DNA from: Sulfurovum sp. enrichment culture clone C5
GTDB lineage: Bacteria > Campylobacterota > Campylobacteria > Campylobacterales > Sulfurovaceae
Assembly (NCBI GenBank): GCA_001493195.1
Contig: FAXN01000013.1
Coordinates: 791-64,790 of the forward strand
Direction: 5' to 3'
Length of the DNA: 64,000 bases
The translations under genes were made by a program, and so were the position numbers. This document shows positions 57,250 through 64,000 of this stretch, piece by piece. The notes beneath the pieces were generated by a model. That model saw only the letters and a program-made list of their open reading frames with translations, did not search any database and was not told the origin of the DNA. The first letter of the stretch is position 1. Each line of letters opens with the position of its first letter.

Positions 57250-58023
57250 ATGGATATACTAAAAATCGGAAAATATGAATTAAACAGTCGTCTAATCGTC
57301 GGAAGTGGTAAATATGATAGTTTTCAAACTACTCTTGATGCGACATTAGCTAGTGGAAGTGAACTTATCACTGTTGCAGTTAGAAGGGTAAATATTACCA
57401 ATCCAGCAGAAGAAAATCTCATGACATATTTTAAAGATACAAATGTCAAGTTTTTGCCAAATAGTGCCGGATGTACAACAGCTGAAGACGCTATAACGCT
57501 ATTTCGCTTAACTCGTGAGGCGACAGGGATTGACCTGATTAAACTTGAAGTTATCGGCGATACAACAAAGACGCTTTATCCTGATGTTATAGAGACTATC
57601 AAAGCTTGTGAGGTTTTGGCTCGTGATGGATTTACTATCATGGCTTATACTAGTGATGATCCTATCATGGCAAAACGCCTTGAAGATGCAGGTGCTCATG
57701 CTATCATGCCTTTGGCTTCTCCTATCGGAAGTGGACTTGGTATCCAAAACAAATTCAATATCCACTTTATCCGTGAAGCAGTAAAAGTTCCTGTTATCGT
57801 TGATGCTGGCATCGGATGTGCGAGTGATGCAAGTGTGGCGATGGAGCTAGGAGCTGATGGAGTATTGACAAATACAGCAATCGCACAGGCAAAAGATCCG
57901 ATTATGATGGCAACCGCTATGAAGCATGCAGTCATGGCTGGACGAATGAGTTATCTAGCAGGTAGGATTCCGAAAAAGCCGTTTGCTACGGCATCTTCCC
58001 CAGTAGATGGTATGATATTCTGA
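57250..58023 (+). CDS. thiG: thiazole synthase
   Basis: 'LIVGSGKY', 'LPNSAGC', 'IKLEVIGD' and 'VIVDAGIG'. Confidence 0.93.
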
Positions 58024-58132
58024 TATTTTTGCCATATTGCTTCATATAGCACTATTTTGCTCAGTCACTTACCATCAGTAAGCTCCTTTGCAAAAATAGC
58101 ACTCTCTAAAACAATCTAACAAAAATATCTAT

Positions 58133-58190
58133 ACTTCGTCATTCCTGCCGTCATCCTCGCGAAGGCGGGGACAGGAATCCAGTCGATAAT
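58133..58190 (+). repeat. nested REP/MITE-like palindromic element flanked by a 10-bp direct repeat
   Basis: gtcattcctgc[cgtcatcctcgc-gaag-gcgggga]caggaatcca has the outer arms of the 54.8-kb element, with a second similar hairpin nested in the loop. It is flanked by aaatatctat at 58123-58132 and 58191-58200. Confidence 0.65.
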
Positions 58191-58428
58191 AAATATCTAT
58201 TTTCAAACAAACCTCACACAAACTTACGATAAATCCACGAAATATCACTTTCTAACATAATCTAGTGAAAATCTTTATAATTAAATTTGCAAAAATAGCA
58301 CTCTTTAGAATAAGTTTGCAAAAATATTTAAGAGTTTTTGTGAAATTATATAAATATTGTAAATTATAATTATTGTTTTAAAATAATTTAAATATAATCA
58401 TTCAAATTATTTTTAAAAAGAGGAACAA

Positions 58429-59136
58429 ATGAGACAAAAGTTAATATTACTAATTATGGCCATTTCTACAATTTTATTTTCTGGATGTGGAGAATTTTCC
58501 AATGTTAGTTTCAATGCAGAAATGAATAAAAATATCAATAAAATAGCTGTTATACCTCCTCTAAAAGAAACAAAAATAAATATTTTCTATTTCAATCATC
58601 CAGGTATGAATTTTGGATTAATTGGATCTGTTGTAGCACTTGCTGAATTTGACTCAAAAGAAAAATCCTACAATAAGCTGATAGAGTCTGAAAAATTTGA
58701 TGCAAATAGTTATTTTATAGAAAAATTAAAAGGATATTTGGAAAATGATAAATATAGTATTAATTTACTTCCAGTTGAAAACAAGGAAAAATTTAAATTT
58801 TTAAAGACTTATCCAGAAGCTGATGCTGATGCATATTTGGATTTATTATGTTCTGTTGGGTATATAGCAGGAAGCCCAACATCAACATATAAACCAACTG
58901 TAAAACTAAAGGTTCGTTTGGTTAAAAAAATAGATAAAACAATAATTTACGATAAAATGATTGCAATTGGTGAGAATTATGGTTTGGATCAAAATGTAGA
59001 ATATATCGGTTGCGAAGACAATAGTTGCTATAGTGATTTTTCAAAATTAAAAGAAAATCCAAAACAAAGTATCGATGGGCTCAAAATTAGTTTAGATAAA
59101 ATAGCCTATCATGTGGCAAATTCTCTTAAGAAATAG
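58429..59136 (+). CDS. putative lipoprotein
   Basis: Signal peptide ending in 'ILFSGC' (lipobox-like). No family recognised. Confidence 0.6.
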   Translation: MRQKLILLIMAISTILFSGCGEFSNVSFNAEMNKNINKIAVIPPLKETKINIFYFNHPGMNFGLIGSVVALAEFDSKEKSYNKLIESEKFDANSYFIEKLKGYLENDKYSINLLPVENKEKFKFLKTYPEADADAYLDLLCSVGYIAGSPTSTYKPTVKLKVRLVKKIDKTIIYDKMIAIGENYGLDQNVEYIGCEDNSCYSDFSKLKENPKQSIDGLKISLDKIAYHVANSLKK

Positions 59137-59145
59137 GAATAACTA

Positions 59146-59778
59146 ATGAAAAATTATTTGAAGATTTGTATAATATTGATATCATTTTTTGGTTGTGCAA
59201 AAACAAATATAGACTATGATATTGTTAGAAACAATTCCAAGATACAAACTAAAACATTAGCCACACTTTCACCTAAAAATATATCATTAAATAAAGAATA
59301 TGAAGCGCAATTAGGAGATGGTGATAATGAGATAATTGATTTAAATGGAAATAGAGTTTTTGCTTCAAAATTTATTCTACCACAAGTTGATACCCCATTT
59401 TCTTTGAATATAAGCAGTTCTTCTAGCGTTGGTTTTTTTGCACCAAGAGTATTTTTTCTTGATGATAAAAGTAAAATAATACGCACAGTAGAAGCAAAAA
59501 ATTTACAATTTGATAGAGGTTTCTATAAAGGAACGATTTTTATTAACACGGAATACAGTAAGATAAATTCAATAGTAGTAACACAAGATACAGAAGAGTC
59601 TAATGCAAAACATAATATTAAATATGTCGAGGGTGGTACTGTATATATTCCAATTGGAGCAGCAATGGTACCAATAACTTTTTCTTCTGGTGATTTGAAT
59701 AAAACATTAAAATATTCATATGGCGGAATGGTAAAAATCACTTTAAAAGCCTACGAACCAGTAGCACTTAGTGAATAA
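59146..59778 (+). CDS. putative lipoprotein (possibly MalM-like periplasmic family)
   Basis: Signal peptide ending in 'SFFGC'. 'FILPQVDTPFSLNISSSSS..FFAPRVFFLDD' is reminiscent of MalM-family proteins. This is a weak call made by eye. Confidence 0.5.
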   Translation: MKNYLKICIILISFFGCAKTNIDYDIVRNNSKIQTKTLATLSPKNISLNKEYEAQLGDGDNEIIDLNGNRVFASKFILPQVDTPFSLNISSSSSVGFFAPRVFFLDDKSKIIRTVEAKNLQFDRGFYKGTIFINTEYSKINSIVVTQDTEESNAKHNIKYVEGGTVYIPIGAAMVPITFSSGDLNKTLKYSYGGMVKITLKAYEPVALSE

Positions 59779-59791
59779 TAAGCTATTTTAT

Positions 59792-60439
59792 TTAGCCATT
59801 ATAAGGTAGCCACTTTTCTTCTTTGTCATTTTTATATATATTTTCTCTAATTATGTTTCCATTTTTATCATATTCTCTTTGAATACCATTTTGTAAGTCA
59901 TTTTTATATTCTACACTTAATTGGAGTATTCCATTCTCATAAAACTTTCCTAAACCTTCTCTTTTCCCATTTTTATAGGGTATTTGAAAAACAACTCTAC
60001 CTTTTCCATCATATTTTGTTGACATACCATTTTCTAAACCATTTGAGTATTCAGTTGTAAATTGCAAACTACCATCTTCTCTATATGTTTCAAAAGTATC
60101 TTGAACCTTGTTTTTAAAGTATTTAGTTTTTGATTTTATTTTGCCATTTTTATAATATGATATACTTTCACTTCTATCTTTATCGATATGTTTAAATTCA
60201 CTTTCAAGTTCTCCGGTATCATAAAATGATTTCATCGCACCTACAATTTTTACGTCTTTAAAGCCATCTTTATTTATAGGGAGATTCTTTGTGTATTCTA
60301 TTGTGCTTGTAGCTTTGGGTTTCCCATTATTATAGTATTCTTGTTTAGTATAAGATGGTTGTTTTATGTAGATGTTATTTAAAGAATAATAAATTAAAAA
60401 AAGAAAAATGATTCCTAGCAATACTATTATAGTACGCAT
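59792..60439 (-). CDS. MORN-repeat (YwqK-like) protein with N-terminal membrane anchor or signal
   Basis: Repeated 'Y.NGK..G....Y..NG' units, for example 'YYKNGKIKSKTKYF', 'PYKNGKREGLGKFYENG' and 'EYKNDLQNGIQREYDKNGN'. Confidence 0.7.
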   Translation of the reverse strand: MRTIIVLLGIIFLFLIYYSLNNIYIKQPSYTKQEYYNNGKPKATSTIEYTKNLPINKDGFKDVKIVGAMKSFYDTGELESEFKHIDKDRSESISYYKNGKIKSKTKYFKNKVQDTFETYREDGSLQFTTEYSNGLENGMSTKYDGKGRVVFQIPYKNGKREGLGKFYENGILQLSVEYKNDLQNGIQREYDKNGNIIRENIYKNDKEEKWLPYNG

Positions 60440-60599
60440 TGTATGACCTCTTTTATATTTATTATGTGTGAAGTATTATATCAAATATTTATTCTAACTT
60501 TTAAGTGTATATTGATACTGATGAGGTATTCTATTTTTTATGTCTAAGGTAGCGATTTATGTTAGTATATAGACAATATGAACAATCTAACAAAAATCT

Positions 60600-61286
60600 C
60601 TATCTATCATTTTTGATTTTTACAACAATCTTACTTTTTCTATCATCAAGATAGCTTATTTCAAAAATATTACTATATTTTTTAAAAATATCACCCCATG
60701 TATTGGCACCATAATTTTTTGCTATAAACGATGAATTTTTATTTTTCAAATATGTTCCAACTGTAGAAATCAATGTATAATCATTTTCTTCTTTTGTACT
60801 ATTAATCGCATCTTTCAATATTTCTATCAAGCCCTCATCATTACTATCGGCAGTTTTATTTTTGATAGGCAACTCAATAAAAGTAGAATATGCATTACGC
60901 AAAGATTCAGGTGTTTTCTTTTCTCCAAATCCTATAACTTCAAATCCTTTTGATTTGATGTCTATAACAAGAGATGTAAAATCACTATCACTTGAGACAA
61001 GTGCTATCACATCAATTTTAGAAGAAATCATAGTATTCATAACATCTATTACCATTTTTATATCAGAGGCATTTTTGTTTAAAACATTTGGGATTATATG
61101 CATAGGCTCTATGGTAAATTTATGAAATTTGTCATTCCATGCTTTGTTGTTTTTATTGCTCCAGTCCGCATATGCTTTACGAATGATGACTTCACCATAG
61201 TTTGCCAATTCGTCAAATGTTTCTTTTACATAAGTTGCACTAATGTTTTCACAATCAAAAAATACAGCCAATTTTTTATTATTCAT
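60600..61286 (-). CDS. NYN (LabA-like) nuclease domain protein with C-terminal OST-HTH/LOTUS domain
   Basis: 'LAVFFDCENIS', 'KAYADWS' and 'IALVSSDSDFTSLVIDIKSKGFEVIGFG' form the NYN acidic motifs. The C-terminal 'LIEILKDAI...YTLISTVGTYLKNK...FIAKNYG' is LOTUS-like. Confidence 0.75.
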   Translation of the reverse strand: MNNKKLAVFFDCENISATYVKETFDELANYGEVIIRKAYADWSNKNNKAWNDKFHKFTIEPMHIIPNVLNKNASDIKMVIDVMNTMISSKIDVIALVSSDSDFTSLVIDIKSKGFEVIGFGEKKTPESLRNAYSTFIELPIKNKTADSNDEGLIEILKDAINSTKEENDYTLISTVGTYLKNKNSSFIAKNYGANTWGDIFKKYSNIFEISYLDDRKSKIVVKIKNDR

Positions 61287-61469
61287 TTTATATCCTTGTG
61301 TGTGTTTATGAGAAATTTAAAAACAAATCTCACACAAACTTTACGACACTTAGACTATATGACATTTTTCTTATTTTGTCAAGTTTTTGTACCAGTCCAA
61401 AAAAATATGACAATTTGAAATATTTTTTATACTAATAAATGATTTTTGTTAATATTTTCATATAAAACA

Positions 61470-62003
61470 ATGGAGATGTTAATGGAAAATTTACCCATAG
61501 AGGATATCACATCAAAGATATATGAGATACGCGGGCAAAAAGTAATGCTTGATAGTGATTTAGCAAATTTGTATCAAGTAGAGTCAAAAAGATTAAATGA
61601 ACAAGTCAGAAGAAATATAGAGCGTTTCCCAAGTGATTTTATGTTTCAGATTTCTGAGATTGAGCATGAAAACTTGAGGTCGCAATTTGCGACCTCAAGT
61701 TTTGAACATGGCGGTAGACGGTATTTGCCATATGTTTTTACCGAACAAGGTGTTTATATGCTTGCAACTGTGCTTAAAAGTAAAGTAGCGATTGATGTTA
61801 GCATACAAATTATGCGAACATTTACAGCACTTAGAAGATACGCACTTACTTATGATGAATTGGCAAAAAAGATAGTAGAGATAGAAAGCAGAGTAAGTGA
61901 TAGTGAAAAAAGAGACCAAAAGATTATAGGAATTATAAATCAGCTTATGAGTGATGATGAGGAGTCGGAAGTCAAAAAGATAGGGTTTATCAAAGATAAA
62001 TAG
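61470..62003 (+). CDS. ORF6N (KilA-N-related, antirepressor-like) DNA-binding domain protein
   Basis: 'IRGQKVMLDSDLANLYQVESKRLNEQVRRNIERFPSDFMFQ...ENLRSQFATSS..GGRRYLPYVFTEQGVYMLATVLKS'. The start is ambiguous among ATGs at 61470, 61476 and 61482. Confidence 0.8.
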   Translation: MEMLMENLPIEDITSKIYEIRGQKVMLDSDLANLYQVESKRLNEQVRRNIERFPSDFMFQISEIEHENLRSQFATSSFEHGGRRYLPYVFTEQGVYMLATVLKSKVAIDVSIQIMRTFTALRRYALTYDELAKKIVEIESRVSDSEKRDQKIIGIINQLMSDDEESEVKKIGFIKDK

Positions 62004-62007
62004 AGAG

Positions 62008-62106
62008 TTTGAAAACTTGAGGTGCCAATTTGTCACCTCAAATCATAGTGGCATCAGATATGCACTTACTTATGATGAATTAGCTAAAAAGATAGTAGAG
62101 ATATAG
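62008..62106 (+). pseudogene. decayed, internally deleted fragment of a second ORF6N gene
   Basis: 62008-62044 matches gene nt ~61665-61701, and 62054-62106 matches gene nt ~61833-61885. It would read ENLRCQFVTSNHSGIRYALTYDELAKKIVEI*. Confidence 0.65.
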
Positions 62107-62305: not shown

Positions 62306-63877
62306 ATGGCAAATGTACCGCATCAATTTGAAAAATTAACCTCCAGAGAAGAAAACGTAGTGGTCATGATTGGTGCAGGTATGTCATACGGTTTGGTGCC
62401 AATGGCAAACGAGTTAAAACAATCATTAGAGTTGGTTACTAACAACTTATCTATTGAAGATGATGAGCTATTAACAGAAAATGATCCGTACAAATATGCT
62501 GATATTGTCCTGAAACATATTCCCAATCAAGATAAATTAGTCCTTGTACAAAATATGGGGATTATCAATAATCCAAAATGGTTCGCTAAAGTTGGTCTAC
62601 CTCTAAGAGGCACGGCACCACGGCATAGAGTTGTTGCCCGTTTTGCCAGAGAAAACCTACTTCATGAAATATGGAACTATAACTGGGATACTATTTTGGA
62701 ATCGGCTTTTGAATCCGTTGGATTTACACGTGGACGAAAAGATGGAATAAAACAGCCTTGGAATACACTTTTCGATACCATAATCACGTATGATGATCTT
62801 ACTGCTACTCCTACAGATGGTTTTTTTAAAATTTACAAGCCTCATGGTTGTTTACAAGCTATGAAAGAAGCTCAGGAATTACAAATGAGTAATCCTGTGA
62901 AATCAAAAAAAATTGCTGAGCGTTTTATGATAGGACAAAATGAACTATCATTAGATAAGCAGTGGACAGACCAAGAGCCTGGAGGTACTTTTCTAAGTTT
63001 GATGCATACAAGTCTAAATCATCATGTTATGGTTATCGGATGGAGTCTGCCAGAAAAATATGTGCATGACAAACTAAAGTATATAATGGAATCTATGACA
63101 GCAGAAATAGAGCATCTCTCTATTATCGATCCTTTTTATCAGGCAGGACATACCACTATTGCTAATCGTTACAATCTGAATCAAAATGAGATACATTTTG
63201 AAGTTTCTTCAACTCAAACAGGTTTAACAACAGATAACCTCTTTTTGGCATTACAAACAAAATATTCATTGAAGCAATTGTTGAAAAATACAGATGAACA
63301 AAGTGACGAGTGGAATACGATTCAAGGTGTTCTTACTCAATGTGATTTGGGAAATACAAAGGATACACTACTATCTTGGGCAGATAATTTTTTACCAGCA
63401 TGGATTCGTTTGTGTTGGCGTACTGAACACCTAAAAGTTAGAACTTTCAATCCTTTCGACATTCGATTAGAAAAACAAGATGTCCATATTCCTTATCAAG
63501 GTATTGAAACTACTCGTATCGATATGGAGATGGCAGCTACAATTTTTCATTACATTCAAAACTCTAAAATAAATTGGGATTTCTCAACATTTGCAGGAGG
63601 ACTTTGGGATTATGAAAACACTCGATTGGTAATTCCTCTACCAAATGCAACATTTTCAACATTACATGTAATAAAACCTCTTGTTAGAATGATTGAAGAA
63701 AAAGTAGCATACATCACAAGTATCGCTATTATGCCAATAACGCATAATTCTCTTCATAATTCATCAGCTAATATATTAAAAAATTCAATCATGCAAATTG
63801 TGTCAAAGCCACAATTAATGCGAGATAATTTCTGGAAAAGTACCAACAATCTTATAGACTATGAGGACATAATATGA
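62306..63877 (+). CDS. SIR2_2-like (defence-type SIR2) domain protein with unassigned ~250-aa C-terminal region
   Basis: The ordered motifs are 'VVVMIGAGMSYG', 'EIWNYNWDTILESAF', 'KIYKPHGCL' and 'VMVIGWSLPEKYV'. These correspond to the GAGxS / TTNYDxLLE / KLHGS / GySxxD pattern of SIR2-like defence NADases. Confidence 0.7.
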   Translation: MANVPHQFEKLTSREENVVVMIGAGMSYGLVPMANELKQSLELVTNNLSIEDDELLTENDPYKYADIVLKHIPNQDKLVLVQNMGIINNPKWFAKVGLPLRGTAPRHRVVARFARENLLHEIWNYNWDTILESAFESVGFTRGRKDGIKQPWNTLFDTIITYDDLTATPTDGFFKIYKPHGCLQAMKEAQELQMSNPVKSKKIAERFMIGQNELSLDKQWTDQEPGGTFLSLMHTSLNHHVMVIGWSLPEKYVHDKLKYIMESMTAEIEHLSIIDPFYQAGHTTIANRYNLNQNEIHFEVSSTQTGLTTDNLFLALQTKYSLKQLLKNTDEQSDEWNTIQGVLTQCDLGNTKDTLLSWADNFLPAWIRLCWRTEHLKVRTFNPFDIRLEKQDVHIPYQGIETTRIDMEMAATIFHYIQNSKINWDFSTFAGGLWDYENTRLVIPLPNATFSTLHVIKPLVRMIEEKVAYITSIAIMPITHNSLHNSSANILKNSIMQIVSKPQLMRDNFWKSTNNLIDYEDII

Positions 63878-64000
63878 ACAAAATTGAAACAATAAAAACA
63901 TATCTCACAAAAAATTATCAAAATCTTTATGATGATTCTTTTTCATTTTGTGAGTCTTTGAAACAAACACAAACAAAACCAGCATGGCTTTGGATTGATG
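63874..64000 (+). CDS. hypothetical protein, 5' part only (runs off the window)
   Basis: The ATG overlaps the upstream stop (ATGA at 63874-63877). The frame stays open to nt 64000: MNKIETIKTYLTKNYQNLYDDSFSFCESLKQTQTKPAWLWID... Confidence 0.55.
   Translation, partial: MNKIETIKTYLTKNYQNLYDDSFSFCESLKQTQTKPAWLWID

What the first reader, a model, noticed from the sequence alone, without database searches (positions are those of the whole stretch)
62306..64000. Defence-style SIR2-like protein translationally coupled to an unidentified partner cut by the window edge
The first ~270 aa of the 523-aa protein carry, in the right order, the four landmarks of the SIR2_2 clade. ThsA, DSR1/2, SIR2-HerA and SIR2-APAZ use this clade as an NAD+-depleting effector.
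- The landmarks are GAGxS (VVVMIGAGMSYG), N-containing NYNWDTILESAF, H-containing KIYKPHGCL, and VMVIGWSLPEKYV.
- The remaining ~250 aa match nothing I recognise.
- The stop codon overlaps the ATG of the next gene (ATGA), which implies an operon.
- The locus sits in an accessory patch with a NYN-LOTUS protein, an ORF6N gene and a pseudogene remnant.
- Size and layout recall SIR2-APAZ + short pAgo or SIR2 + HerA. However, the 42 visible residues of the partner look like neither family's N-terminus as far as I remember them.

This could therefore be an undescribed SIR2 pairing.
Basis: partly seen in the sequence, partly recalled or inferred. Interest (0 to 1): 0.7.

Follow-up and report, generated by a model that had tools for sequence, protein, structure and literature searches.

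The report
Lamassu-like SIR2 plus Rad50-like defence pair
The gene encodes a defence-type SIR2 (NAD-destroying) enzyme that is always paired with a Rad50/SMC-like zinc-hook ATPase, which makes it a rare, fused-domain relative of the known Lamassu anti-phage systems rather than a wholly new SIR2 pairing.

Summary
A 523-aa ORF (62306-63877, +) carries a defence-type SIR2 domain, and its stop overlaps the ATG of the next gene (ATGA).

**SIR2 protein.** Asn126, Asp128 and His180 are invariant in 80 homologues. The AlphaFold model (pLDDT 87.6) matches KomC, ThsA, SIR2-HerA and DSR2.

**Partner.** The window shows only 42 aa of it. Relatives reveal a ~942-aa protein:
- a 236-aa N-terminal domain with no detectable homologue;
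- a Rad50/LmuB-like ABC ATPase with an invariant Walker A and a single CxxC zinc hook;
- a non-canonical hhhhDD Walker B.

**Pairing.** The two genes are adjacent (-17 to +12 nt) in all 26 distinct loci with enough downstream sequence, across about seven phylum-level lineages. No third gene is conserved.

**C-terminal domain.** The SIR2 protein's 218-aa C-terminal domain occurs only with this SIR2 domain (140 hits in 1.84 billion representative proteins).

**Classification.** Lamassu (ABC-3C) systems with a Sir2 LmuA are the closest known kind, especially the 'long' type. Three things differ here:
- there is no separate lmuC;
- the ATPase has an N-terminal fusion;
- no PADLOC LmuA or LmuC model matches.

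I rate it a new variant of a known kind.

**Likely mechanism (inferred).** The ATPase senses foreign DNA and releases or activates the SIR2 NADase, giving abortive infection.

The parts
62306..63877 (+). Effector gene, 523 aa: an N-terminal SIR2 domain plus a C-terminal domain private to this family (LmuA-like architecture).
   Evidence: ORF. Pfam SIR2_2. 86 homologues. AF2 model with Foldseek hits to defence SIR2 proteins.
62306..63220 (+). SIR2 (SIR2_2-type) Rossmann domain, aa 1-305. It contains GAGMS (aa 23-27, nt 62372-62386), Asn126/Asp128 (nt 62681-62689) and His180 (nt 62843-62845).
   Evidence: N126, D128 and H180 are invariant and S27 is at least 90% conserved in 80 sequences. Structural matches to KomC, ThsA, SIR2-HerA and DSR2.
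63221..63874 (+). C-terminal domain, aa 306-523: helices, a conserved acidic loop (consensus R-D-E-H-I-P-W; LEKQDVHIPY here, about nt 63461-63496) and a beta-sheet. It is the presumed docking domain for the ATPase.
   Evidence: Confidently modelled. No Pfam, PDB or PADLOC match. A profile search of 1.84e9 representatives found 140 hits, and all 63 full-length hits carry the same SIR2 N-domain. Invariant positions include D360, W366, C370, P396, R404 and G431.
63874..64000 (+). First 42 codons of the partner gene, cut by the window edge. The full protein is about 942 aa: a 236-aa N-terminal domain of unknown fold family followed by a Rad50/LmuB-like zinc-hook ABC ATPase.
   Evidence: ATGA overlap. 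The 42 aa are 81% identical to the N-terminus of P0087 and closely match the 942-aa L001 protein. The remainder of this genome's copy is P0100 (BN3087_160001, 643 aa), at the start of another contig of the same assembly.

Best explanation
This is a two-gene, Lamassu-type (ABC-3C-like) abortive-infection defence module.

**Gene 1** is the effector. It has a SIR2 NAD+ hydrolase domain, followed by a C-terminal domain private to this family that tethers it to the sensor.

**Gene 2** is the sensor. It is a diverged Rad50/SbcC/LmuB-like ABC ATPase that dimerises through a CxxC zinc hook. Its Walker B is the slow-hydrolysis hhhhDD type. It also carries a fused 236-aa N-terminal domain in the operon position where Lamassu systems have the small 'middle component' LmuC.

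**Proposed mechanism, by analogy with solved Lamassu complexes (inferred, not shown here).**
1. The ATPase dimer holds the SIR2 protein in an inactive, probably monomeric, state.
2. The ATPase engages foreign DNA, such as DNA ends or replication intermediates of a phage or plasmid.
3. The effector is released or rearranged and oligomerises.
4. It depletes NAD+, which stops the infected cell.

**Shown here:** the domain identities, the catalytic-residue conservation, strict gene pairing and coupling, co-divergence of the two proteins, and patchy, mobile or defence-island-associated distribution.

**Inferred:** physical complex formation, the DNA trigger, NADase activity and the abortive-infection outcome.
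For: **SIR2 effector.**
- Pfam SIR2_2 hit.
- Invariant N126, D128 and H180.
- AF2 model with pLDDT 87.6.
- The top Foldseek hits are almost all defence SIR2 NADases: KomC, ThsA, SIR2-HerA, DSR2 and SPARSA.

**Partner.**
- AF2 model with pLDDT 88.8.
- Foldseek matches Rad50 of MRN (7zr1, E 6e-13), SMC heads and Salmonella LmuB (9hqu_B, E 1.5e-8).
- Invariant Walker A (GPNGxGKS), a single invariant CxxC (C601/C604) and Walker B D854-D855. PMC12663957 reports a single CxxC and hhhhDD as the features of 'long' LmuB.
- In 37 of 37 family members the best PADLOC model is LmuB PDLC03859 (best E 6e-23). It is the only model aligned from head to head.
- Curated Rad50/SbcC/RecF NCBIfam models touch only the P-loop, at no more than 26 bits.

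**Pairing.**
- The partner follows the SIR2 gene in all 26 distinct loci with room downstream, with gaps of -17 to +12 nt.
- Those loci span Campylobacterota, Gamma- and Betaproteobacteria, Verrucomicrobiota/PVC, Desulfomonilia, Acidobacteriota and Bacteroidota.
- Pairwise distances of the two proteins correlate at r = 0.96, and 0 of 2000 Mantel permutations reached that value.
- No third gene is conserved within 4 kb on either side.

**Context.**
- Neighbours include Tn7-like transposition genes, GmrSD, WYL, TIR+nSTAND, HicAB, Fic and integrases.
- One copy is disrupted by an IS element.
- In the window the pair lies at the end of an accessory stretch that begins with a low-GC segment.

**Architecture.** The order effector-CTD, then N-domain, then ATPase mirrors lmuA-lmuC-lmuB (PMC10586767, PMC12663957). 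The modelled CTD (helices, an acidic conserved loop and a beta-sheet) fits the published verbal description of long-LmuA CTDs.
Against: - None of the 80 SIR2-family members hits any PADLOC LmuA model.
- None of the 24 N-domains hits an LmuC model, a Pfam family or a PDB sequence.
- hhalign of the N-domain against SbcD-like proteins is null, at probability 0.1%.
- The LmuB model is not specific. A canonical SbcC-like protein scores higher on it (E 2.5e-27).
- Solved short LmuBs are not found by sequence search.
- The CTD is never found with another effector domain, whereas Lamassu is known for effector swapping.
- Nothing here tests activity, complex formation or phage defence.
- One context (L009) shows no defence genes nearby.
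Confidence: 0.62

Rival explanations
1. This is an independent defence system, not a Lamassu descendant. A Rad50/SbcC-like ATPase was recruited separately, together with its own N-terminal sensor domain, to control a SIR2 NADase. It works like Lamassu but arose by convergence, so it would deserve its own name.
For: - No LmuA or LmuC homology is detectable.
- The CTD and the N-domain have no homologues outside the family.
- The LmuB model also matches true SbcC.
- By sequence the nearest solved proteins are Rad50, not LmuB.
- In some Campylobacterota the pair sits directly after an Mre11/Rad50 pair. That leaves room for a separate origin of the partner from an SbcC-like gene.
Against: - The hhhhDD Walker B plus a single CxxC is the published hallmark of long LmuB (PMC12663957).
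- The gene order and the effector-plus-CTD logic are those of Lamassu.
- LmuA CTDs and LmuC are known to diverge beyond sequence recognition (PMC12663957).
- The LmuB model scores far above the Rad50/SbcC models for this protein.
Confidence: 0.25
2. This is a DNA-repair or chromosome-maintenance accessory rather than immunity. The SIR2 domain would act as a regulatory deacylase or ADP-ribosyltransferase working with a Rad50-like ATPase, perhaps together with the neighbouring Mre11/Rad50 pair.
For: - In L004/L005 and L007/L008 the pair lies immediately downstream of Mre11-like and canonical Rad50-like genes, and in L004 the two genes share 1 nt.
- The Rad50 fold of the partner.
Against: - The Mre11/Rad50 pair is absent from the window, from the closest GTDB relative L014, and from all loci outside Campylobacterota.
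- The family is very rare and scattered across phyla: 24 loci from a scan of 185,579 species genomes, and 140 representatives in 1.84e9 proteins.
- It is carried as transposon cargo or sits next to defence genes.
- It decays by IS insertion.
- The SIR2 fold is closest to NADase effectors; a sirtuin deacetylase (SIRT2) appears only at rank 42.
- The degenerate signature motif (NGAE) and the DD Walker B are atypical for repair Rad50.
Confidence: 0.06
3. The adjacency has no functional meaning, or the SIR2-like domain is catalytically dead and the genes are selfish or decaying cargo.
For: - The Pfam score is borderline.
- Some copies are truncated or interrupted (L037 and L027).
Against: - The catalytic triad and the Walker motifs are invariant across homologues that are only about 25-35% identical.
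- Adjacency holds in 26 of 26 loci.
- The two proteins co-diverge.
- The models are confident.
Confidence: 0.03

Closest known systems
Lamassu / ABC-3C systems with a Sir2 LmuA effector, especially 'long' Lamassu (Millman 2022, bioRxiv 10.1101/2022.05.11.491447; PMC10586767; PMC12663957)
   Same: - The effector protein is an N-terminal enzymatic domain (SIR2) plus a C-terminal docking domain.
- The sensor is a Rad50/SbcC-derived ABC ATPase with a coiled coil, a single CxxC zinc hook and an hhhhDD Walker B.
- The effector gene comes first and the ATPase gene last.
- The genes are tightly coupled.
- The context is defence islands or mobile elements.
- The best PADLOC model for the ATPase is LmuB.
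   Different: - There are two genes, not three, with no separate lmuC.
- The ATPase carries a conserved 236-aa N-terminal domain with no detectable similarity to LmuC, SbcD or any other family.
- The SIR2-CTD protein matches no PADLOC LmuA model.
- Its CTD is never combined with another effector.
- The ATPase is about 940-975 aa overall. Its Rad50-like part is about 700 aa, between the published short (about 600) and long (about 800) LmuB classes.
- The ABC signature motif is NGAE.
Type I Lamassu (LmuA-LmuB two-gene systems, e.g. Bacillus cellulasensis; bioRxiv 10.1101/2025.06.23.660979)
   Same: It is a two-gene effector plus SMC-like ATPase operon without a separate LmuC. The effector is sequestered by the ATPase dimer until DNA ends are sensed.
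   Different: - Type I uses a Cap4 nuclease effector and a short LmuB of about 600 aa with no N-terminal extension.
- It belongs to one clade of short Lamassu that lost LmuC (PMC12663957).
- Here the effector is SIR2 and the ATPase has long-type motifs plus an added domain.
SbcCD / Mre11-Rad50
   Same: The partner has the Rad50 head, coiled-coil and zinc-hook fold. In some relatives a real Mre11/Rad50 pair lies directly upstream.
   Different: - There is no Mre11 nuclease in the conserved module.
- The Walker B is DD, not DE.
- The signature motif is NGAE, not SGGE.
- Curated Rad50/SbcC models match only the P-loop.
Other SIR2 defence systems (Thoeris ThsA, DSR1/2, SIR2-HerA/Nezha, SPARSA SIR2-APAZ + short pAgo, Kongming KomC)
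   Same: They share the same SIR2_2-type NADase fold and catalytic Asn/His, and probably NAD+ depletion as the output.
   Different: The sensor partner is entirely different. There is no SLOG, HerA, APAZ/pAgo or KomA/B partner, and the CTD has no counterpart in them.

Membership tests
SIR2_2 / defence-type SIR2 superfamily | Significant match to the SIR2_2 profile | tested here: met
   The Pfam PF13289 hit scores 24.9 bits against a cutoff of 24.5, E 2.5e-5. This is borderline. Many homologues also carry PF13289 in precomputed annotation, and a family-profile search of PDB sequences finds a SIR2 family protein (8yhx) at E 4e-5.
SIR2_2 / defence-type SIR2 superfamily | Rossmann-type SIR2 fold | tested here: met
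   The AF2 model has pLDDT 87.6. Foldseek gives probability 1.00 to KomC (TM 0.70 on the target), ThsA, SIR2-HerA, DSR2 and SPARSA.
SIR2_2 / defence-type SIR2 superfamily | Catalytic Asn and His and the GAGxS NAD-binding loop are conserved | tested here: met
   N126, D128 and H180 are invariant and S27 is at least 90% conserved in 80 sequences.
SIR2_2 / defence-type SIR2 superfamily | NAD+ hydrolase activity | not testable with these tools
   This needs biochemistry.
Lamassu (LmuA/LmuB/LmuC; ABC-3C) | LmuB: a Rad50/SMC-like ABC ATPase with a coiled coil | tested here: met
   The partner folds as Rad50/SMC/LmuB. LmuB PDLC03859 is the best PADLOC model in 37 of 37 members and aligns head to head. 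The caveat is that a true SbcC-like protein also matches that model.
Lamassu (LmuA/LmuB/LmuC; ABC-3C) | Long-type LmuB motifs: prototypical Walker A, a single CxxC zinc hook, and an hhhhDD Walker B (PMC12663957) | tested here: met
   GPNGxGKS, C601/C604 and D854-D855 (VLDDP) are invariant in 54 sequences. The neighbouring canonical SbcC-like protein has FDE and FSGGE instead.
Lamassu (LmuA/LmuB/LmuC; ABC-3C) | LmuA: an N-terminal effector domain plus a C-terminal docking domain, encoded upstream of lmuB | tested here: met
   The architecture is SIR2 (aa 1-305) plus CTD (aa 306-523). The gene lies upstream and overlaps the ATPase gene.
Lamassu (LmuA/LmuB/LmuC; ABC-3C) | Sequence homology of the effector protein to known LmuA families (including LmuA-Sir2) | tested here: not met
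   None of 80 members matches any PADLOC v2.0.0 LmuA model at E<=1. DefenseFinder's newer Lamassu-Fam profiles could not be run.
Lamassu (LmuA/LmuB/LmuC; ABC-3C) | LmuC, a small middle-component gene (absent in type I) | tested here: not met
   There is no separate gene between the two, since gaps are -17 to +12 nt. The 236-aa N-domain of the ATPase occupies that position but shows no LmuC, Pfam, PDB or SbcD similarity. A structural comparison of the isolated domain could not be done.
Lamassu (LmuA/LmuB/LmuC; ABC-3C) | The partner branches within the LmuB clade rather than with SbcC/Rad50 | not tested
Only score comparisons were possible: about 78 bits on LmuB PDLC03859 against no more than 26 bits on the Rad50/SbcC/RecF models.
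Lamassu (LmuA/LmuB/LmuC; ABC-3C) | Anti-phage or anti-plasmid activity that needs both the ATPase and the effector | not testable with these tools
   This needs experiments.
   The partner is a Rad50/SMC-type ABC ATPase. There are no PADLOC HerA or pAgo hits for the partner. The SIR2 family shows only weak SIR2-domain matches to Aga_SIR2 models.

The most novel reading that the evidence does not exclude
The pair may be a distinct, so far unnamed defence system. On this reading a Rad50-like zinc-hook ATPase acquired its own N-terminal sensor domain and a private docking interface to a SIR2 NADase, independently of Lamassu. Alternatively it may be a deep, unsampled branch between SbcCD and long Lamassu. 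The direct Mre11/Rad50 adjacency seen in Campylobacterota would then be a living trace of how repair machinery was converted into immunity.
Probability: 0.25. Interest if true: 0.65.

Novelty: new variant of a known kind. Interest (0 to 1): 0.45.

Why it matters
- Lamassu systems are widespread, but the solved and functionally dissected examples cited here are nuclease-effector systems, almost all of the short type. I found no report of a functional or structural test of a Sir2-bearing or 'long' form.
- This family is a compact two-gene version with a fused extra domain and an exclusive effector-docking domain.
- It could show how a Rad50-like sensor controls an NADase, and what stands in for LmuC.
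- In some genomes it sits directly behind an Mre11/Rad50 pair, which bears on the proposed SbcCD-to-Lamassu evolutionary path.
- PADLOC v2.0.0 has no model for the effector, so genome surveys using it would not call this family as a complete system.
- The family is rare and confined to environmental lineages, and its logic is not new.

Tried and rejected
- **Exact-sequence contig look-ups.** Look-ups of the window's SIR2 protein and of P0100 found nothing. The window's own downstream DNA could not be recovered. The partner was reconstructed from relatives and from P0100.
- **SIR2-APAZ/pAgo and SIR2-HerA.** Rejected, because the partner is an ABC ATPase of the Rad50 type.
- **A four-gene system with Mre11/Rad50.** Rejected as the conserved unit, because that pair is present only in some Campylobacterota loci.
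- **A conserved third gene.** None was found within 4 kb on either side.
- **Identifying the partner's N-domain.** All of the following gave nothing:
  - Pfam, PADLOC and PDB sequence searches;
  - hhalign against SbcD-like proteins;
  - a word-indexed homologue search, which returned only 4 gene fragments;
  - Foldseek with the whole-protein model, where Rad50 hits swamped the list.
- **Effector swapping on the CTD.** Not found.
- **Plasmid and phage collections.** No homologue.
- **Promoter and terminator scan.** Nothing above chance. There is no tRNA nearby.
- **Krishnan et al. 2020 (ABC-3C classification).** The paper is not held in the library.
Full report
**1. Observation**

The ORF at 62306-63877 (+) encodes 523 aa. 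Its TGA stop (63875-63877) overlaps an ATG at 63874, which opens a frame running to the window end with 42 aa visible.

Pfam SIR2_2 is only just significant: 24.9 bits against a cutoff of 24.5, E 2.5e-5. PADLOC v2.0.0 and NCBIfam give nothing for this protein.

Independent evidence supports the SIR2 assignment:
- In an alignment of 80 homologues, N126, D128 and H180 are invariant and S27 of GAGxS is at least 90% conserved.
- An AlphaFold2 model built on that alignment is confident (pLDDT 87.6, pTM 0.90).
- The top 50 Foldseek hits in the PDB are, with one exception (human SIRT2, rank 42), defence SIR2 proteins. They are KomC (E 8e-8, TM 0.70 on the target), ThsA, SIR2-HerA, DSR2 and SPARSA.

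The SIR2 fold covers about aa 1-305. Residues 306-523 form a separate, confidently modelled domain of helices, a long conserved loop and a small beta-sheet. That domain matches no Pfam, PDB or PADLOC entry.

- a NYN+LOTUS protein at 60600-61286 (-);
- an ORF6N protein at 61446-62003;
- a decayed second ORF6N copy at 62010-62103.

GC content drops to about 27% over 58000-61500, against about 36% in the purT/purN/thiG block. The window comes from a 64,868-nt contig of Sulfurovum sp. enrichment culture clone C5.

**2. The partner**

Close relatives of the SIR2 protein (74-86% identical) are always followed, with a 4-nt overlap, by a gene of about 942 aa. Its N-terminus is about 81% identical over the window's 42 visible residues. 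The remaining roughly two-thirds of this genome's own copy is P0100 (BN3087_160001, 643 aa). It lies at the start of a separate 5.2-kb contig of the same assembly, so the gene simply spans a contig break.

The partner has two parts.

*A Rad50/SMC-type ABC ATPase, from about aa 240 to the end.*
- Walker A (GPNGxGKS) is invariant.
- There is a long coiled coil with a single invariant CxxC (CPSCG here).
- The signature-motif position reads NGAE.
- Walker B is VLDDPAQEMD, with both aspartates invariant.
- The AF2 model (pLDDT 88.8) matches Rad50 of MRN (E 6e-13), SMC heads and Salmonella LmuB (E 1.5e-8). In the viral library it matches phage Rad50/SbcC-like proteins.

*A 236-aa N-terminal alpha/beta-plus-helical domain.*
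- It has its own invariant residues: Y15, W38, D59, G63, W105, W111, R129, E137, D141, R167 and W181.
- It is present in every family member.
- It has no Pfam, PADLOC (including LmuC) or PDB-sequence match.
- It shows no profile similarity to SbcD-like proteins.

**3. Is the pair a unit?**

Yes.
- In 26 distinct loci with enough downstream sequence, the partner follows the SIR2 gene at -17 to +12 nt.
- Those loci come from Campylobacterota, Gamma- and Betaproteobacteria, Verrucomicrobiota/PVC, Desulfomonilia, Acidobacteriota and Bacteroidota.
- Pairwise distances of the two proteins correlate at r = 0.96, and 0 of 2000 Mantel permutations reached that value.
- No other gene is conserved within 4 kb; the largest cluster spans 3 loci.

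Some Campylobacterota loci have an Mre11-like gene and a canonical Rad50/SbcC-like gene directly upstream. The latter has FSGGE, FDE and CPTC motifs and scores E 1e-47 on an NCBIfam Rad50 model. These two genes are absent from the window, from the closest GTDB relative (L014) and from all loci outside Campylobacterota. They are therefore not part of the conserved module.

The genomic contexts are typical of accessory or defence DNA:
- Tn7-like transposition genes with GmrSD (L007);
- GmrSD_N, WYL and a DUF4011 helicase (L004);
- TIR plus nSTAND-WD40 (L010);
- HicAB and Fic (L001);
- an integrase and a DUF927 protein (L012);
- one copy cut by an IS630-like element (L037).

These come unless noted. 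One locus (L009) has no obvious defence neighbours.

The family is rare. A pattern-limited scan of one genome for each of 185,579 species returned 24 loci. No homologue was found in the plasmid or phage collections.

**4. The effector's C-terminal domain**

I searched a profile of aa 306-523 against 1.84 billion representative proteins. It found only 140 proteins. All 63 full-length ones (at least 480 aa) also carry the same SIR2 N-domain, and the rest are fragments. The domain is therefore exclusive to this SIR2 protein. Its most conserved features are FLPxWVRLCWR and an acidic loop R-D-E-H-I-P-W.

**5. Comparison with what is known**

Lamassu (also called ABC-3C or DdmABC) systems have three parts. 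LmuA is an effector with a variable N-terminal enzymatic domain and a C-terminal docking domain. LmuC is a small middle component. LmuB is a Rad50-like ATPase (PMC10586767). SIR2 is one of the listed LmuA effector domains (bioRxiv 10.1101/2022.05.11.491447; PMC10586767).

PMC12663957 divides Lamassu into short and long types. Long LmuB is close to SbcC, always has one CxxC, and has an hhhhDD Walker B. Long LmuA CTDs are described as helices plus a conserved negatively charged loop plus a beta-sheet. LmuC lies just before lmuB and, in the long type, resembles the SbcD C-terminal domain. Sir2 effectors occur in both types.

The present pair shares these features:
- the effector-plus-CTD architecture;
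- the gene order;
- the zinc hook;
- the DD Walker B;
- a CTD that fits that verbal description.

LmuB PDLC03859 is the best PADLOC model, and the only one aligned head to head, in 37 of 37 partners (best E 6e-23). Curated Rad50/SbcC/RecF models touch only the P-loop.

It differs in these ways:
- There is no separate lmuC.
- A conserved, unassignable 236-aa domain is fused to the ATPase exactly where LmuC would be encoded.
- None of the 80 effector proteins matches any PADLOC LmuA model.
- The CTD shows no effector swapping.

The LmuB model is also not specific, because the canonical SbcC-like neighbour scores higher on it. I found no description of a fused LmuC-LmuB or N-extended form in the papers read. 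A search of PMC12663957 for 'fused' and 'fusion' gave no hits. The Krishnan et al. 2020 classification could not be read.

**6. Mechanism**

The mechanism is inferred from solved Lamassu complexes (PMC12663957; bioRxiv 10.1101/2025.06.23.660979).
1. A zinc-hook dimer of the ATPase sequesters one inactive effector through the CTD.
2. The ATPase recognises DNA ends or replication intermediates of an invader. ATP turnover is kept slow by the DD Walker B.
3. The SIR2 protein is released, oligomerises and hydrolyses NAD+.
4. The result is abortive infection.

The N-domain is the best candidate for the DNA or specificity factor role that LmuC plays. None of these steps was tested here.

**7. Verdict**

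I rate this a new variant of a known kind. It is a rare two-gene, Lamassu-like Sir2 system with a fused N-terminal domain and a private docking domain. Interest is moderate (0.45). There is about a 25% chance that it is an independent system or a deep intermediate between SbcCD and Lamassu, which would raise its interest.

Noticed in passing
window 61446-62003 (+) and 62010-62103: The ORF6N-domain protein matches the PADLOC candidate defence family PDC-S05 at E 4e-61. Just downstream lie two short remnants (62010-62041 and 62056-62103) of a second, decayed copy of the same gene, 88-94% identical in nucleotides.
   Followed up: partly
window 60600-61286 (-): A NYN ribonuclease-like domain is fused to an OST-HTH/LOTUS domain (228 aa). 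It lies in the low-GC accessory stretch next to the SIR2 operon.
   Followed up: no
window 58000-61500: GC content falls to about 27%, against about 36% in the adjacent purT/purN/thiG housekeeping block. The stretch encodes two lipoprotein-like ORFs, a repeat protein (215 aa) and the NYN-LOTUS gene.
   Followed up: no
L004 6527-10001, L007 6526-10000, L001 5380-8857: In several Campylobacterota relatives, an Mre11-like phosphoesterase and a canonical Rad50/SbcC-like ATPase (789 aa) sit directly upstream of the SIR2 gene. In L004 their last gene shares 1 nt with the SIR2 start. In L007 all four genes lie next to TnsA/TnsB/TniB/TniQ, like Tn7 cargo. This could be a functional partnership or an evolutionary trace of the SbcCD-to-Lamassu path.
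   Followed up: partly
L001 8869-10000: A Fic/RhuM gene lies between the SbcC-like gene and the SIR2 gene. A 44-aa ORF just before the SIR2 gene is a remnant (70% identical) of the C-terminus of the L004-type SbcC-like protein. This points to rearrangement of a former four-gene arrangement.
   Followed up: no
L037 6001-7510; L027 7629-10474: These are decayed copies. In L037 the SIR2 homologue stops at about aa 150, followed by IS630-like transposase ORFs, and the partner is gone. In L027 the partner reading frame is interrupted after 366 aa.
   Followed up: partly
L004 14415-21593 (also L005, L006): A DUF2779/Cas4-like gene overlaps the partner's stop by 4 nt. It is followed by GmrSD_N, WYL and a 2,099-aa DUF4011 helicase protein. 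This arrangement is not conserved in other loci.
   Followed up: no
partner protein aa ~163-310 (P0087, P0103; L001 11572-14400): Long PtuA (Septu) PADLOC models of 726-773 positions align to the partner starting about 80 residues before the Walker A strand. The match therefore covers the last helices of the N-terminal domain (E 1e-8 to 2e-11). The meaning is unexplained.
   Followed up: no
window 63874-64000 and protein P0100: The rest of the partner gene in this same Sulfurovum assembly is annotated as a 643-aa protein (BN3087_160001) at the start of a separate 5.2-kb contig. The gene is therefore split by an assembly break, not truncated biologically.
   Followed up: partly
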